From positions 128,001 through 192,000 of IMG/VR virus record IMGVR_UViG_3300028171_000090: a DNA stretch of 64,000 nt. One strand, given 5' to 3'. The notes below the pieces were generated by a model. The model was not told where the DNA came from. It worked only from the letters and a program-made list of their open reading frames with translations, and made no database searches. This stretch comes from a virus (lineage: Duplodnaviria; Caudoviricetes). The translations under genes were made by a program, and so were the position numbers. Positions within the stretch are counted from its first letter, which is position 1; every line of letters begins with the position of its first letter. Shown in pieces: positions 33,461-36,359 of the stretch.

Positions 33461-33811
33461 ATGAATGTTCAAACGAAAAAAGTTACTGTCCCTCATCATG
33501 GCACTTTACATGTACTTAACGGTATGCAAGGACCAATCTTGGAACCTGCGAAACTCCCATTGGACAGAGTACGTGCTCTTGTCATCACTGGAATCAAAGT
33601 GATTGAGCATCTAGAAGATGGAACTCAAATCGAGTTAAATCGCCGTAACGTTGAGAAGGACAACTCTCACCTGCAAGAGTCTTTAAAGAAAGCAGAAAAA
33701 CCTGCTCCAGTTGTTAAGCCTAATGAGCAACAACAAAAGCAAAAAAATAAAGAAGAGTTTGTTAAAGACAACCGTAAGCAAGACGGTAACAAAAATAACA
33801 AACAAAACTAA
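33461..33811 (+). CDS. hypothetical protein
   Basis: 116 aa, AGGAGG SD, K/N/Q-rich tail. Confidence 0.7.
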   Translation: MNVQTKKVTVPHHGTLHVLNGMQGPILEPAKLPLDRVRALVITGIKVIEHLEDGTQIELNRRNVEKDNSHLQESLKKAEKPAPVVKPNEQQQKQKNKEEFVKDNRKQDGNKNNKQN

Positions 33812-33822
33812 CAAAAAAATTA

Positions 33823-33862
33823 ATAGATGTAGACTATGCCTAATGGTGTAGTCTACATCTAT
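33823..33862. terminator. bidirectional terminator
   Basis: 18-bp stem (two G-U pairs on +), TAAT loop, T-tracts on both strands. Confidence 0.75.
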
Positions 33863-34708
33863 ATTTTTCTTTTTCATCTTTTTATCTCTCTCTTTTTTAT
33901 CTTGGAATGTTTTTGTTTATTAGTTTTTCTCTGTTTTAATTCGTTTTATATTTTTTATATATCTGTTTTCCTAGATGAAATGATCCCCATCATCCATCTG
34001 GATGCAGGTGAGTCCCTACGTCACCCGCGGAATGATACCCTCCGTGATGTTATATTCTAAATATATCATTCCTGAATACTTTTTTGTCTGTTTTGTGAAC
34101 TGAATAAACATAATATATTAAAGTTTCTCCTCTCCGAGAAACTTATACAATTTTACCCATATTTTGTTACACTCGCTATCTCTCTCTTTCTTGTTGAATA
34201 CGTCACATGCTGTAGACATTAGAACGTTTCTCTAAATTTCTACCTACATTCCCCAAAACCGTACAGAGTATAAAGCTTTCCAATGACTTAGTGGTGTCTC
34301 CGAATAATCCTTCTCCGATTACTCTTCTCCTCCGATAGTATCTCCGTCCATCATTGCTTCACACCCCCTCTCGTAAGAGGGTGTGAAGGTATAGCTTTAC
34401 ATCTTAGTAAATCTTGTCGTGTTTGGGATGTAGTAGTTGTTACATAGCCGATGACCTGATTATAGCCAGGCATCCGTTTTAGACCTAATTAATTAGCCTT
34501 AACGTTTTTAGTCAAGGGGTTTAAGAAGTGTTAGCCTAGTAGTCTACACTAAGCTCGTCTAGCTATAAATAACATTACTACCACTATCATATATCTCTTT
34601 ATCCCACACCTGTAATAAGTACTCCTCGATGTAATCAATTGAAAATATACCTCCATCTTTTTTAGTATGGAGCGTTTAGCATAGTAGTAAAACCATTATC
34701 AACACTCG
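33863..34708 (-). ncRNA. putative large structured non-coding RNA
   Basis: No credible ORF; early-like promoter at 34706-34723; terminators on both sides; many hairpins including a UACG tetraloop; six CGGAG motifs. Confidence 0.5.
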
Positions 34709-34723
34709 TATATATAATGTGTG
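34706..34723 (-). promoter_or_regulatory. early promoter-like motif (variant)
   Basis: CACACATTAT ATATA CGA. Confidence 0.4.
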
Positions 34724-34759
34724 CTTAAATAACGGTTTATTACTATTTTATAAAAAGGT

Positions 34760-34786
34760 ACGAATAGGGACATAATCCCTATTCGT
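34760..34786 (-). terminator. intrinsic terminator after beta' N gene
   Basis: 11-bp stem ACGAATAGGGA/TCCCTATTCGT overlapping the stop codon, then a T-tract. Confidence 0.7.
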
Positions 34787-36359
34787 CTTTTGTTAATGCA
34801 TAGAACGTTTGTAAAGCTTCGTTTTCGGTACTACGGATGTTCGAGCCTGATACGTTTAGAATATTTGTTTTATTCTTAATCAGCCTGTCCAATTCACGGT
34901 TTGATTCAACACTGAATACACCACGAATTGTTACTTGGTCACCGTCATAATCTCCACCTAAACCTTTTAGGTATAAGTTAGAGATATTCAGAGTCTCAAC
35001 AAACATCGTAGATACATGTGATGTAGGTAGTTCTAAGTCTACGTATGGATAACGTTTATAGAACTTACCATTGATTACAGCTGGTATAGTACGTGTTGTA
35101 GACAGAACTGTTATCTTATTTGGAAAGATTCCAAGATAGTCCTGTAGAGGGTAGCGCGTTATTAAAACGTGCTTATCCGCACATACTTCCGTTGCTGCTA
35201 AGAATAATATATCAGTCCATGTTGCAGGTCTATTTACAATGGTAGAAGATTCTGTAACCTCACCATTCTTACCTACACCATAACGTCCAGATATACGTAA
35301 CTTCAAGTTCAATCCTTCACTATTCTCTAGTGGGATTGTCTTGTATCGGTCAGCATAAGAGTGTACATATAAGTCAATACATTTGGTAATGTATTCATCA
35401 TTATATTGCTCAACGTTCGTTAGCTGTACATTTCCTAGCTCACCGGTTTTCCTACGTATCGGATAATTATCTTTACGTAGTACGATTTCTTTATAGAAGA
35501 AATCTTTTACCCATTTAATAATATAAGGAAGGAAGTTCGTTACTGCCATTGAGAGTGGTAACCCGCAACGGTAGAAGGATACTTCCATATCTTCCGGCGT
35601 TTCATCTTTAAATAATGGAGTAGAGATTACGGCACGTACACCATAGTCAACACTTTTACCCATTACGAACTGACGGAACATTCCGTGCTTCCCTTTAATT
35701 TGGAATGTAAAGTTATTATAGATTTCTACTAATAGATGCTGTATCTTTAATCGAGTACTGTCACCTACAATAGATAATCCCGAGTTATCGTTCTTTAAGG
35801 CAGAACATAACCGAAGTAACTTTGCATACATTTTGTTTTCTTCACCACTAGATAGTTTACCTTTGTCCATCTTATCCAATTGGATGTCTCGATAGAACGC
35901 TGGTTCTACTATCCAGAATTTGGTAAATATTTCATTCATTTTAAGACCTTTGATTAAATCAACACGGTCTGTACGAGATAAGCTCGCACTCTTTTTAAAC
36001 TTAATCTTGTGGAAATTACGTACTAGGAATGGTAAACCTGTTTGTCCGTTTTCTTCATCGACAACAATGTCTCCTTCTCCTGTAATACGTACGTGTATAT
36101 TTCCTGCAATAATTTCTTCGAAACGTCGGTCTAGACGTTTCAATACTTTATATACATAAGGATGGAAGAAGTTCTCGTTCAAACTTATGTATGCAAAAAT
36201 ACCTTTACGATCTTCGACTGTACGTCCGAAGATTTCAGTAGATAGAAGTCCGTCTACAGTCGGTATGTTATCACGTTCGATTAGAATCGGATTACGTACT
36301 TCTTGTAGATTATTCACTTGAATAAACTTCTCTACATTAAATATATCAATATTCATCAA
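34779..36359 (-). CDS. rpoC: RNA polymerase beta' N-terminal/catalytic half, probably virion RNAP
   Basis: GLLSTEIFG, GKHGMFRQFVMGKSVDYGVRAVI, catalytic GGDYDGD. Confidence 0.9.
   Translation of the reverse strand: MMNIDIFNVEKFIQVNNLQEVRNPILIERDNIPTVDGLLSTEIFGRTVEDRKGIFAYISLNENFFHPYVYKVLKRLDRRFEEIIAGNIHVRITGEGDIVVDEENGQTGLPFLVRNFHKIKFKKSASLSRTDRVDLIKGLKMNEIFTKFWIVEPAFYRDIQLDKMDKGKLSSGEENKMYAKLLRLCSALKNDNSGLSIVGDSTRLKIQHLLVEIYNNFTFQIKGKHGMFRQFVMGKSVDYGVRAVISTPLFKDETPEDMEVSFYRCGLPLSMAVTNFLPYIIKWVKDFFYKEIVLRKDNYPIRRKTGELGNVQLTNVEQYNDEYITKCIDLYVHSYADRYKTIPLENSEGLNLKLRISGRYGVGKNGEVTESSTIVNRPATWTDILFLAATEVCADKHVLITRYPLQDYLGIFPNKITVLSTTRTIPAVINGKFYKRYPYVDLELPTSHVSTMFVETLNISNLYLKGLGGDYDGDQVTIRGVFSVESNRELDRLIKNKTNILNVSGSNIRSTENEALQTFYALTKDE

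What the first reader, a model, noticed from the sequence alone, without database searches (positions are those of the whole stretch)
34040..34346. Six CGGAG motifs in the putative ncRNA: possible CsrA- or ribosome-binding decoy
Seen: + strand CTCCG at 34040, 34132, 34298, 34313, 34330 and 34342. One presents GGAGAG as the loop of a 9-bp hairpin, four lie within ~50 nt enclosed by CAAUGA/UCAUUG, and one reads UCACGGAGG. Rough expectation is about 0.2 copies per 900 nt at ~1/3 GC (hand estimate). Known: CsrB/RsmZ-type sRNAs titrate CsrA with repeated exposed GGA motifs; UCACGGAGG fits (A/U)CANGGANG; Bacillus CsrA represses flagellin; AR9/PBS1 adsorb to flagella. Inference: a phage sponge RNA for CsrA, a phage translational repressor, or anti-SD sequences.
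Basis: partly seen in the sequence, partly recalled or inferred. Interest (0 to 1): 0.72.

Follow-up and report, generated by a model that had tools for sequence, protein, structure and literature searches.

The report
CGGAG cluster around a phage micro-gene
The six CGGAG motifs are real and non-random, but they sit on an early jumbo-phage transcript that carries a conserved 11-codon mini-gene; part of the cluster is coding sequence or a local duplication, so a CsrA "sponge" RNA is unlikely.

Summary
Observation confirmed: CTCCG(+)/CGGAG(-) lies at all six stated places. About 0.2-0.3 copies are expected, and this is the only such cluster in the 223-kb phage genome.

The stretch is an early transcription unit on the - strand. 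It has an AR9-type early promoter (predicted start 34707) and a terminator at 33862-33823. Separate contigs cover it in four soil metatranscriptomes.

It is not purely non-coding. An 11-codon ORF (34354-34319, MMDGDTIGGEE) has homologues at the same place in at least 7 related phage lineages. All four Gly codons are used at the invariant Gly, so selection acts on the peptide.

- Two CGGAG copies are codons of this micro-ORF.
- Two lie in a 15-nt x 2.3 tandem repeat just after its stop.
- Two lie in a 3' trailer that only this lineage has.

Relatives do not conserve the array. Only 1 of 6 copies fits the extended CsrA consensus. The C before GGAG is unlike this phage's real ribosome-binding sites.

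The GGAG cores are predicted to be exposed. If they have a function, my best guess is 30S binding (standby or stabiliser, as with STAB-SD or the SP82 polypurine element). This is inferred, not shown.

A CsrA sponge is about 5% likely. Other first-stage readers noted this same stretch as a candidate ncRNA.

The parts
34705..34745 (-). Early-type (virion RNAP) promoter: upstream AGTAATAAA (34744-34736), core ACATTATA (34720-34713), predicted +1 G at 34707.
   Evidence: ACATTATA-N3-GTGAG with upstream CGTAAYAA or AAAATTTAAC recurs before about 20 genes of this genome. It parallels the AR9 early consensus AAATATATATTAT-(6N)-G+1 (PMC5312081).
33815..34707 (-). Early transcript of about 0.9 kb: 353-nt leader, 11-codon ORF, about 500-nt trailer.
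   Evidence: Promoter and terminator bracket it. Separate RNA contigs span 33845/33846/33860/33924 to 34597/34635/34642, at depth 11-32, equal to or above the flanks, in 4 metatranscriptomes. No ORF above 40 aa.
34319..34354 (-). Conserved micro-ORF MMDGDTIGGEE plus stop. It contains CGGAG copies at 34346-34342 and 34334-34330.
   Evidence: Homologous short ORFs with core hydrophobic-hydrophobic-(D/E)-G-(D/E)-(T/S)-hydrophobic-(G/A/C) lie at the same place in L005, L006, L009, L013, L014, L083 and L084/85 (alignment A2). The motif occurs nowhere else in 2.7 million six-frame residues. The invariant Gly uses GGA, GGG, GGT and GGC.
34357..34388 (-). 13-bp hairpin (loop UACG, GG bulge). Its 3' arm holds the SD-like GAGGGGG, 9 nt before the micro-ORF ATG.
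   Evidence: Read from the sequence. Paired in both MFE and centroid structures. SD scan.
34334..34352 (-). Hairpin 1: GAUGG [ACGGAGAUA] CUAUC. It holds the start-codon region and shows CGGAG copy 1 in its loop.
   Evidence: MFE and base-pair probabilities.
34302..34324 (-). Hairpin 2: GAGUAAUC [GGAGAAG] GAUUAUUC. It begins inside the last sense codon (GAG 34324-34322) and spans the stop codon (34321-34319). Copy 3 is in the loop. Copy 4's C (34302) closes the helix and its GGAG follows directly 3' of it.
   Evidence: P(unpaired) = 1.0 for the loop. 8-bp stem.
34297..34330 (.). Tandem repeat of a 15-nt unit, 2.3 copies (+ strand consensus TCTCCGAATAATCCT). It accounts for copies 34298 and 34313 and reaches the first base of copy 34330.
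   Evidence: TRF score 47, 85% matches.
34121..34144 (-). 9-bp hairpin with loop GGAGAG (CGGAG copy at 34136-34132), in the lineage-specific trailer.
   Evidence: P(unpaired) = 1.0 for GGAG.
34040..34048 (-). UCACGGAGG, the only copy that fits (A/U)CANGGANG. It lies inside a 9-bp-closed internal loop region.
   Evidence: GGA here is only partly unpaired, P 0.86/0.28/0.24.
34622..34627 (-). Orphan SD-like GAGGAG, 9-16 nt downstream of where two RNA contigs end (34635, 34642).
   Evidence: duplex with anti-SD -8.2 kcal/mol. Only a weak hint of a protected 5' end.
33823..33862 (.). 18-bp hairpin with T runs on both sides. It is the shared terminator of the convergent 116-aa gene and of this unit.
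   Evidence: RNA contigs from both sides stop at it.
34760..34786 (.). Bidirectional terminator of the RNAP beta' N-half gene (34779-36359, -).

Best explanation
The six CGGAG lie on the - strand of an early transcript of about 0.9 kb from an AR9-like jumbo phage.

Shown:
- The transcript has its own virion-RNAP-type promoter and a terminator.
- It is present as a discrete RNA contig in soil metatranscriptomes.
- It carries an 11-codon ORF that related phages conserve at the peptide level, so it is a small-protein mRNA with long UTRs, not a pure ncRNA.

The motif cluster has mixed origins:
- Two copies are codons of the micro-ORF (GAC-GGA-G, ATC-GGA-G).
- Two come from a 15-nt tandem duplication that builds a hairpin across and just past the stop codon.
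- Two sit in hairpins of a 3' trailer found only in this lineage.

Inferred: the GGAG cores are left single-stranded, because the RNA has 10 GGAG and only 1 CUCC. Their most likely action is to pair with the 16S anti-Shine-Dalgarno tail. A bound 30S subunit would hold ribosomes near the structurally masked micro-ORF start (standby). It would also shield a long, barely translated RNA from 5'-exonuclease, as STAB-SD and the SP82 polypurine stabiliser do in Firmicutes. Titration of CsrA is not the likely role.
For: - Motif positions and enrichment.
- Promoter: core ACATTATA with upstream AGTAATAAA and GAG at +1, matching the genome's own recurrent motif and the AR9 early consensus (PMC5312081).
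- Every relative with the micro-ORF has an ATATATTAT or ACATTATA motif between the RNAP stop and the ORF, with a leader of 53-779 nt.
- Transcription: 17 RNA runs hold the stretch. In 4 of them a separate contig covers about 33845-34640 at depth equal to or above the neighbours, and breaks at both terminators.
- Micro-ORF: alignment A2. Regex hits occur only at the syntenic place in 2.7 million residues. Synonymous codon variation. The stop lies 3 codons after the core G/A residue in 6 of 8. True SDs precede it in L009 and L083.
- Tandem repeat.
- Exposure: 5 of 6 GGA are mostly unpaired. Three GGAG-loop hairpins occur here against 37 in 446 kb of both strands.
- SD-likeness: the phage SD consensus is AGGAGGAA or GGAGAGAT. 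Duplex energies with the anti-SD are -6.6 to -14 kcal/mol, against a real-RBS median of -10.2.
- Orphan canonical SDs without start codons also occur in the syntenic RNAs of L084/85.
- Precedent: SD-like elements stabilise Firmicute and SP82 phage RNAs without a start codon (PMC7509114; reference list of PMC3997798).
Against: - The base before GGAG is C in 6 of 10 here, but in only 2 of 141 real RBS windows. These are poor SD mimics on their 5' side.
- STAB-SD elements act near the 5' end. The cluster is at least 350 nt from the predicted start.
- The array is not conserved. Minimal relatives (L009, L083, L013) have promoter, SD, micro-ORF and terminator with no GGAG cluster, so any function is a lineage-specific add-on or absent.
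- The predicted structure is only modestly above background: z = -6.3, against about -4 to -5 for coding controls.
- Contigs cannot give strand, ends or level. One adapter-bearing contig end at 34635 would, in a dUTP library, indicate a + sense fragment.
- The host is unknown.
Confidence: 0.4

Rival explanations
1. No dedicated function. The cluster is a by-product of Gly/Asp/Glu codons in the micro-ORF, one local 15-nt slippage duplication, and purine-rich, fast-evolving UTR sequence that drifts freely.
For: - Two copies are codons, and the Gly codon varies freely in relatives.
- TRF repeat.
- The array is absent from most relatives, and leader and trailer lengths vary from about 50 to about 800 nt with no nucleotide similarity.
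- The coding-sense strand is generally purine-rich.
Against: - Even counting the duplication once, four independent CGGAG in about 300 nt against about 0.1 expected remains unlikely.
- C at -1 in 6 of 10 GGAG, against 11% genome-wide.
- Three GGAG-loop hairpins in one RNA against about 0.07 expected.
- A genome that is 92% coding seldom keeps 0.85 kb of junk.
- There are no SNPs inside the unit in the 4 runs laid, which date from 2018-2019, while the neighbouring gene has four.
Confidence: 0.3
2. The exposed (C)GGAG/GGA array binds a sequence-specific RNA-binding protein. One version is the host regulator CsrA (the sponge idea). The other is an unknown phage or host protein that controls micro-ORF translation or is titrated by the RNA.
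For: - 7 GGA in 72 nt, alternating between hairpin loop and linker as in RsmZ/CsrB.
- UCACGGAGG fits the extended CsrA consensus.
- The conserved C suggests a motif distinct from an SD.
- A MAG in which a related jumbo-phage contig was binned encodes CsrA at 91 bits.
Against: - Only 2 of 6 copies have A at the ANGGA position, and 1 of 6 fits the full consensus.
- No Csr/Rsm Rfam hit.
- No CsrA gene in the phage.
- The array is not conserved.
- The host is unknown.
- From general knowledge: CsrA in Bacillus-type Firmicutes is antagonised by the protein FliW, and no sponge RNA is known there.
- Four of the GGA lie inside a translated ORF.

My split of the 0.15: CsrA about 0.05, another protein about 0.10.
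Confidence: 0.15
3. The repeats act at the DNA level. They would be binding sites for a replication or transcription protein (iteron-like) at a convergent-gene junction.
For: Irregular 12-17 bp spacing of four copies beside a very AT-rich tract at 33866-33990. The site lies between convergent transcription units.
Against: - The stretch is transcribed and partly translated.
- Strand-asymmetric fold (z = -6.3 against -2.5).
- The motif is neither avoided nor otherwise special in the genome (observed/expected 0.84).
- No such repeats at the same place in relatives.
Confidence: 0.05
4. The functional RNA is the + strand, whose CUCC-rich loops mimic the anti-SD and mask the SDs of mRNAs.
For: One contig end at 34635 carries a read-2-type adapter. 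In a dUTP library this indicates a + sense fragment. UCUCC seeds are typical of Firmicute sRNAs (general knowledge).
Against: - No promoter motif on the + strand inside the gap.
- The + strand folds no better than coding background (z = -2.5).
- The conserved micro-ORF and the early promoter are both on the - strand.
Confidence: 0.03

Closest known systems
STAB-SD (B. thuringiensis cryIIIA leader) and the polypurine 5' stabiliser of Bacillus phage SP82 early RNA (Agaisse & Lereclus 1996; Hue, Cohen & Bechhofer 1995, as cited in PMC3997798 and PMC7509114)
   Same: SD-like purine motifs with no start codon behind them, on a Firmicute-type phage early RNA. They are predicted single-stranded and able to pair with the 16S 3' tail. 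The SP82 element is also reported to follow a processed hairpin (my recollection of Hue et al. 1995; not checked here).
   Different: The known elements are single and lie within a few nt of the RNA's 5' end. Here there are six to ten copies, mostly mid-transcript. Six carry a C at -1 that shortens the SD helix. Nothing has been tested.
CsrB/CsrC/RsmX/RsmY/RsmZ CsrA-titrating sRNAs
   Same: Dense GGA motifs (7 in 72 nt) alternating between hairpin loops and linkers. One site reads UCACGGAGG.
   Different: No Rfam match. Most sites read UCGGA rather than A(N)GGA. Four GGA lie inside a conserved translated ORF. The RNA is about 0.9 kb with long unrelated flanks. Relatives do not conserve the array. 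Host and CsrA are unknown.
AR9 early (virion-RNAP) transcription units (Lavysh et al. 2017, PMC5312081)
   Same: Promoter of the same type (AT-rich core ...ATTAT-(6N)-G+1), followed by a short early gene and an intrinsic terminator.
   Different: The core is ACATTATA rather than ATATATTAT. There are two classes of upstream element. The gene is only 11 codons, set in 0.85 kb of UTR. Goe21 (genus Takahashivirus, the AR9-type Bacillus jumbo phages) has no counterpart ORF at this place.
Large ornate phage RNAs (ROOL RF03087, GOLLD RF01998, T5 RNAX)
   Same: Size near 0.9 kb, phage-borne, ORF-poor, with many hairpins.
   Different: No Rfam hit. The fold z-score is only slightly beyond coding background. 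No conservation or covariation is available. It contains a translated micro-ORF.

Membership tests
CsrA sponge sRNA (CsrB/RsmZ type) | Several GGA motifs exposed in hairpin loops or single-stranded linkers | tested here: met
   Prediction only. 5 of 6 CGGAG have GGA mostly unpaired, and two sit in loops with P = 1. 7 GGA in 72 nt.
CsrA sponge sRNA (CsrB/RsmZ type) | Sites fit A(N)GGA / (A/U)CANGGANG | tested here: not met
   ACGGA in 2 of 6 and UCGGA in 4 of 6. Full consensus only at 34048-34040.
CsrA sponge sRNA (CsrB/RsmZ type) | Match to a curated Csr/Rsm RNA family | tested here: not met
   No Rfam hit at gathering score. None among E <= 10 hits.
CsrA sponge sRNA (CsrB/RsmZ type) | Motif array kept in related genomes | tested here: not met
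   Around the micro-ORF, syntenic units in relatives have 1-2 GGAG, or 3-4 in L084/85. None has a CGGAG array.
CsrA sponge sRNA (CsrB/RsmZ type) | Binds and titrates the host's CsrA | not testable with these tools
   Host unknown. The phage has no CsrA gene. A MAG that holds a related phage contig has CsrA, but binning is not proof of host.
STAB-SD / polypurine 5' stabiliser | SD-like sequence able to pair with the 16S 3' end, with no start codon behind it | tested here: met
   Duplex -6.6 to -14 kcal/mol against a real-RBS median of -10.2. No usable start after the copies outside the micro-ORF.
STAB-SD / polypurine 5' stabiliser | Lies close to the 5' end of the stabilised RNA | tested here: not met
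   The CGGAG cluster is at least 350 nt from the predicted +1 (34707). Only the separate GAGGAG at 34627-34622 lies 9-16 nt from contig ends at 34635 and 34642, which is a weak hint.
STAB-SD / polypurine 5' stabiliser | Typical SD context (A or G before GGAG) | tested here: not met
   C precedes 6 of 10 GGAG here, against 2 of 141 in real RBS windows.
AR9-type early (virion RNAP) promoter | AT-rich core ending ATTAT, 6 nt, then G at +1, recurring before genes | tested here: met
   ACATTAT-ATATAC-G at 34720-34707. The same core lies before about 20 genes. AR9 consensus from PMC5312081.
Translated small-protein gene | Peptide conserved across diverged genomes with synonymous codon change, and a fixed stop position | tested here: met
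   A2. GGA, GGG, GGT and GGC at the invariant Gly. Motif found only at the syntenic site.
Translated small-protein gene | Ribosome-binding site at the right distance | tested here: inconclusive
   The window has GAGGGGG 9 nt upstream, but inside a 13-bp hairpin. L009 and L083 have clear SDs; L005, L006 and L014 do not.
Large ornate structured RNA (ROOL/GOLLD-like) | Fold well beyond background and kept by covariation | tested here: inconclusive
   z = -6.3 against coding controls of -4.1 to -4.7. No alignable relatives. No SNPs in 4 runs.
RNA anti-CRISPR (solitary repeat unit) | Hairpin matches a CRISPR repeat of a host | tested here: inconclusive
   The 22-nt core of the 9-bp hairpin gave only single chance-level matches in 401 sampled genomes of the phylum of the Herbinix MAG (G002). 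Host unknown.

The most novel reading that the evidence does not exclude
A dual-function early phage RNA. Besides encoding the conserved micro-protein, its dense array of loop- and linker-exposed (C)GGAG motifs would work as a decoy that soaks up a host GGA-reading regulator (CsrA) or 30S subunits early in infection. That would be the first RNA sponge of this kind carried by a phage of Firmicutes.
Probability: 0.06. Interest if true: 0.8.

Novelty: new member of a known kind. Interest (0 to 1): 0.33.

Why it matters
Small proteins and UTR elements of jumbo phages are almost unannotated. This work defines an unannotated early micro-gene: a core motif of two hydrophobic residues, then (D/E)-G-(D/E)-(T/S), a hydrophobic residue and G/A/C, in an ORF of 11-30 codons. 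A clade of uncultured AR9-like phages shares it, always beside the RNA polymerase beta' N-half gene.

It also shows that a striking motif cluster can be a mixture of coding sequence, a duplication and UTR. If the exposed GGAG elements do bind 30S subunits, the unit would be a natural case of multi-copy SD-like stabiliser or standby sites on a phage RNA. The synonymous recoding described under next steps would let the peptide and the RNA motif be tested separately.

Tried and rejected
- Rfam at gathering and at E <= 10: nothing relevant. A group II domain V/VI hit of 18 bits, E = 1, at 34212-34280 is treated as noise.
- tRNA/tmRNA scan: none.
- Nucleotide similarity to 50,697 phage records: none. 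To 160 related loci: only AT-rich low-complexity matches.
- Pseudogene idea: tblastn of all ORFs from related loci against the gap gave nothing. The beta' C part of fused relatives maps elsewhere in this genome (13268-14470), so the micro-ORF is not a missing RNAP exon.
- Closer relatives: the viral, metagenome and genome-contig scans gave at most 49% protein identity. No covariation test was possible, and there are no SNPs inside the unit in the 4 runs laid.
- Restriction-site avoidance: CGGAG is not unusual genome-wide (observed/expected 0.84, rank 78 of 508).
- CRISPR-repeat mimicry by the 9-bp hairpin: single chance-level matches in 401 genomes.
- GGAG-loop hairpins in the genome-end gap: they belong to a different repeat family with variable loops.
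- Fold of the conserved 116-aa neighbour: confident model, but no PDB match below E = 0.1.
- A part without RNA cover: the low-depth zone at 34640-34760 and the contig ends are not evidence of RNA ends.
- The adapter at 34635 is a single fragment. I did not use it to assign the strand.
- My first global fold (z = -8.7) included the untranscribed promoter hairpin. It was replaced.

Full report
**Setting.** The window is bases 128001-192000 of a 223-kb IMG/VR virus record. It is a jumbo phage with split multisubunit RNA polymerases. The gene at 34779-36359 (-) is the beta' N-half (phrog_2986). Its nearest named relatives are Bacillus phage Goe21, Listeria phage LPJP1, and AR9/PBS1, at only about 35-37% identity. 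The nearest uncultured relatives reach 45-49%. So this is not AR9 or PBS1. The runs that hold it are soil metagenomes and metatranscriptomes, and the host is unknown.

**The gap.** The finding lies in a 967-nt gap (33812-34778) with no ORF above 40 aa. On one side is the RNAP gene. On the other is a convergent 116-aa gene (33461-33811, +). Hairpins with T runs on both sides bracket the gap, at 33823-33862 and 34760-34786.

**Observation.**
- All six CTCCG(+)/CGGAG(-) copies are at the stated coordinates.
- The expected number is 0.21 from window k-mers, or 0.30 from the coding-sense background of 0.34 per kb, giving P(>=6) = 8e-7.
- No other stretch of the genome has 3 or more copies in 350 nt.
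- The 9-bp hairpin with a GGAGAG loop (34121-34144), the CAAUGA/UCAUUG pair around four copies, and UCACGGAGG are all present.
- The copies are not independent. TRF reports a 15-nt unit x 2.3 copies at 34297-34330.

**Which strand, and is it expressed?**
- K-mer enrichment upstream of this genome's genes gave the SD consensus AGGAGGAA/GGAGAGAT and a promoter-like core, tATACATTATAtagGTGAG.
- Listing every ACATTATA showed about 20 intergenic copies before genes. They fall into two classes by upstream element, AAAATTTAAC or CGTAAYAA.
- The AR9 early (virion RNAP) consensus is AAATATATATTAT-(6N)-G+1, and the late one is AACA-(6N)-TA/G (PMC5312081). The motif here is the same kind of element.
- The gap holds one copy on the - strand (34720-34713), with AGTAATAAA upstream and ACGAG downstream. 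That predicts +1 at G 34707.
- Seventeen metatranscriptome runs hold the stretch. In the four that I laid, a separate contig covers 33845/33846/33860/33924 to 34597/34635/34642 at depth 11-32. That is equal to or above the flanking genes. The contigs break at both terminators, and depth along the 5.5 kb varies from 0 to 78. This pattern looks like RNA, not contaminating DNA.
- Contigs cannot give the strand. One adapter-bearing end at 34635 would indicate a + sense fragment in a dUTP library. It is a single fragment, and I record it only as counter-evidence.
- With realistic ends (34707-33866), the - strand folds at z = -6.3 and the + strand at z = -2.5. Coding controls of equal length give about -4 to -5. 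The structure signal is therefore modest. My earlier z = -8.7 included the untranscribed promoter hairpin.

**The key new result: a conserved micro-ORF.**
- I compared the gap with the syntenic gaps of the closest relatives. One shared 18-mer stood out, GACGGAGAYACTATYG.
- It is the core of a short ORF. In the window this is ATG 34354 to TAA 34319, reading MMDGDTIGGEE.
- Homologues are: L006 ..DDIILDGDTIGVEDDDNDNE, L005 MGEDIIIFEGDTIATIE, L014 ..VVLDGETVGVWR, L009 ..PYEGETVGRPA, L083 ..VYEGETMGMPV, L013 ..VWEGETIGIEV, and L084/85 MDEFILDGESIC.. (alignment A2).
- A seven-residue pattern for this core matches six times in 2.7 million six-frame residues of about 160 loci. Every match is at this syntenic place and on this strand. 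A looser pattern gives the same picture across the 45-49% clade, and nothing in Goe21.
- The invariant Gly is encoded by GGA, GGG, GGT and GGC in different lineages. The Asp/Glu codons also vary.
- In six of eight lineages the stop comes three codons after the core G/A residue.
- L009 and L083 have clear SDs before the ORF.
- This is selection on a peptide, and it also settles that the - strand is the functional one.
- Every relative has an early-promoter motif between the RNAP stop and the micro-ORF, with leaders of 53-779 nt.
- In L009, L083 and L013 the ORF is followed directly by a terminator.
- The conserved unit is therefore early promoter, micro-ORF, terminator. The window's 353-nt leader and roughly 500-nt trailer are specific to its lineage.

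**Anatomy of the cluster.**
- Copies 1 and 2 (34346, 34334) are the codons GAC-GGA-G and ATC-GGA-G of the micro-ORF.
- Copies 3 and 4 (34317, 34302) lie in the 15-nt tandem repeat, which starts just after the stop. The repeat forms hairpin GAGUAAUC[GGAGAAG]GAUUAUUC.
- Copy 5 is the loop of the 9-bp hairpin in the trailer.
- Copy 6 is UCACGGAGG, further downstream.
- The SD-like GAGGGGG of the micro-ORF lies in the 3' arm of a 13-bp hairpin (34388-34357). The start codons lie in the 5' arm of hairpin GAUGG[ACGGAGAUA]CUAUC.
- Partition-function folding leaves the GGA of five copies mostly unpaired, and two have P = 1.
- The RNA has 10 GGAG and only 1 CUCC.
- Hairpins that show GGAG in a 5-9-nt loop number 37 in the whole genome on both strands. 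Three of them are here.

**What the motifs are not.**
- They are not typical ribosome-binding sites. The base before GGAG is A (98), G (30), T (11) or C (2) in real RBS windows, but C in 6 of 10 here.
- They are poor CsrA sites. Four read UCGGA and two read ACGGA, and one fits the full consensus.
- No Csr/Rsm family or any other Rfam family matches.
- The phage has no CsrA gene.
- The array is not conserved. Around the micro-ORF, relatives have 1-2 GGAG, or 3-4 in L084/85.
- CGGAG is not avoided genome-wide, so a restriction-related reading fails.
- A CRISPR-repeat-mimic reading of the 9-bp hairpin found no support in 401 sampled genomes.

**Most likely mechanism (inferred).**
- The GGAG(G/A) cores match the phage's own SD core. 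They can pair with a Firmicute-type anti-SD at -6.6 to -14 kcal/mol, against a real-RBS median of -10.2.
- In Firmicutes, SD-like elements without start codons stabilise RNAs by holding a 30S subunit that blocks 5' exonuclease. One case is an SP82 phage early RNA (PMC7509114; references in PMC3997798).
- Orphan canonical SDs also occur in the syntenic RNAs of L084/85.
- An orphan GAGGAG lies 9-16 nt inside the two contig ends at 34635 and 34642. This is a weak hint of a protected 5' end.
- I therefore rate 30S binding (standby for the structurally masked micro-ORF, and protection of a long, barely translated RNA) as the best functional reading. It carries clear weaknesses: the C at -1, the mid-transcript position and the lack of conservation.
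- A pure by-product origin is nearly as likely.
- A specific RNA-binding protein, CsrA included, remains possible but has no support.

**Verdict.** The 'ncRNA' is an early small-protein mRNA with long UTRs. The motif cluster has mixed origins and is specific to this lineage. The CsrA sponge idea is improbable (about 5%). The main gain is the conserved micro-gene and its early transcription unit. Other first-stage readers noted the same stretch as an ORF-free unit with an early-type promoter and GGAG loops. I checked the promoter and the loops myself and found both, but 'ORF-free' needs correcting.

Noticed in passing
G000:C1:221500-223016 (own genome, outside the window; - strand): The ORF-free 2.1-kb end of the record holds about nine spaced units. 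Each is AAAATAAAATGA, then a hairpin with variable stem and loop, then (C)GGCATAGTCT, at 110-190-nt intervals. This is a distinct repeat family, perhaps terminal-region promoter/terminator or packaging elements.
   Followed up: partly
window 33461-33811 (+): The convergent 116-aa gene is conserved beside the RNAP beta' N-half gene across the clade (13-sequence alignment A1). AlphaFold gives pLDDT above 90 for residues 1-70 (beta-alpha-beta core, invariant G24-P25, E49, G54), followed by a disordered Lys/Asn/Gln tail. No Pfam, PHROG or PDB fold match.
   Followed up: partly
window 35300-35499: A strong local structure inside the RNAP beta' N-half coding region (200-nt window, z = -7.3 on -, -6.1 on +). 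This is stronger than anything in the finding's own stretch.
   Followed up: no
whole genome (G000): GAACA/TGTTC is the most under-represented 5-mer (observed/expected 0.62). It contains the AACA core of the AR9 late promoter, so spurious late promoters may be selected against.
   Followed up: no
whole genome; e.g. window 40529, 43709, 20827: The early-type promoters fall into two classes by upstream element: AAAATTTAAC about 13 nt upstream, or CGTAAYAA about 15 nt upstream of ACATTATA. These may be two temporal or factor-dependent subclasses.
   Followed up: partly
L015, L080 (about 1165 aa); L022, L024, L030, L034, L046 (about 935-980 aa): In several related phages the beta' N-half is fused in one ORF with the next beta' segment. 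In this genome that segment is a separate gene far away (genome 13262-14470). Gene fission and fusion of the RNAP vary within the clade.
   Followed up: partly
own genome 26784-28532 and 65725-66497: Two further ORF-poor gaps of 1.75 kb and 0.77 kb. The second holds two ACATTATA promoters. Not examined for micro-ORFs or RNAs.
   Followed up: no
window 34168-34151 and L006 6696-6720: A second short shared string (ACAAAAUAUGGGUAAAA-like, 15 of 18) lies about 150-190 nt after the micro-ORF stop in both the window and L006. It could be chance or a second tiny conserved element.
   Followed up: no
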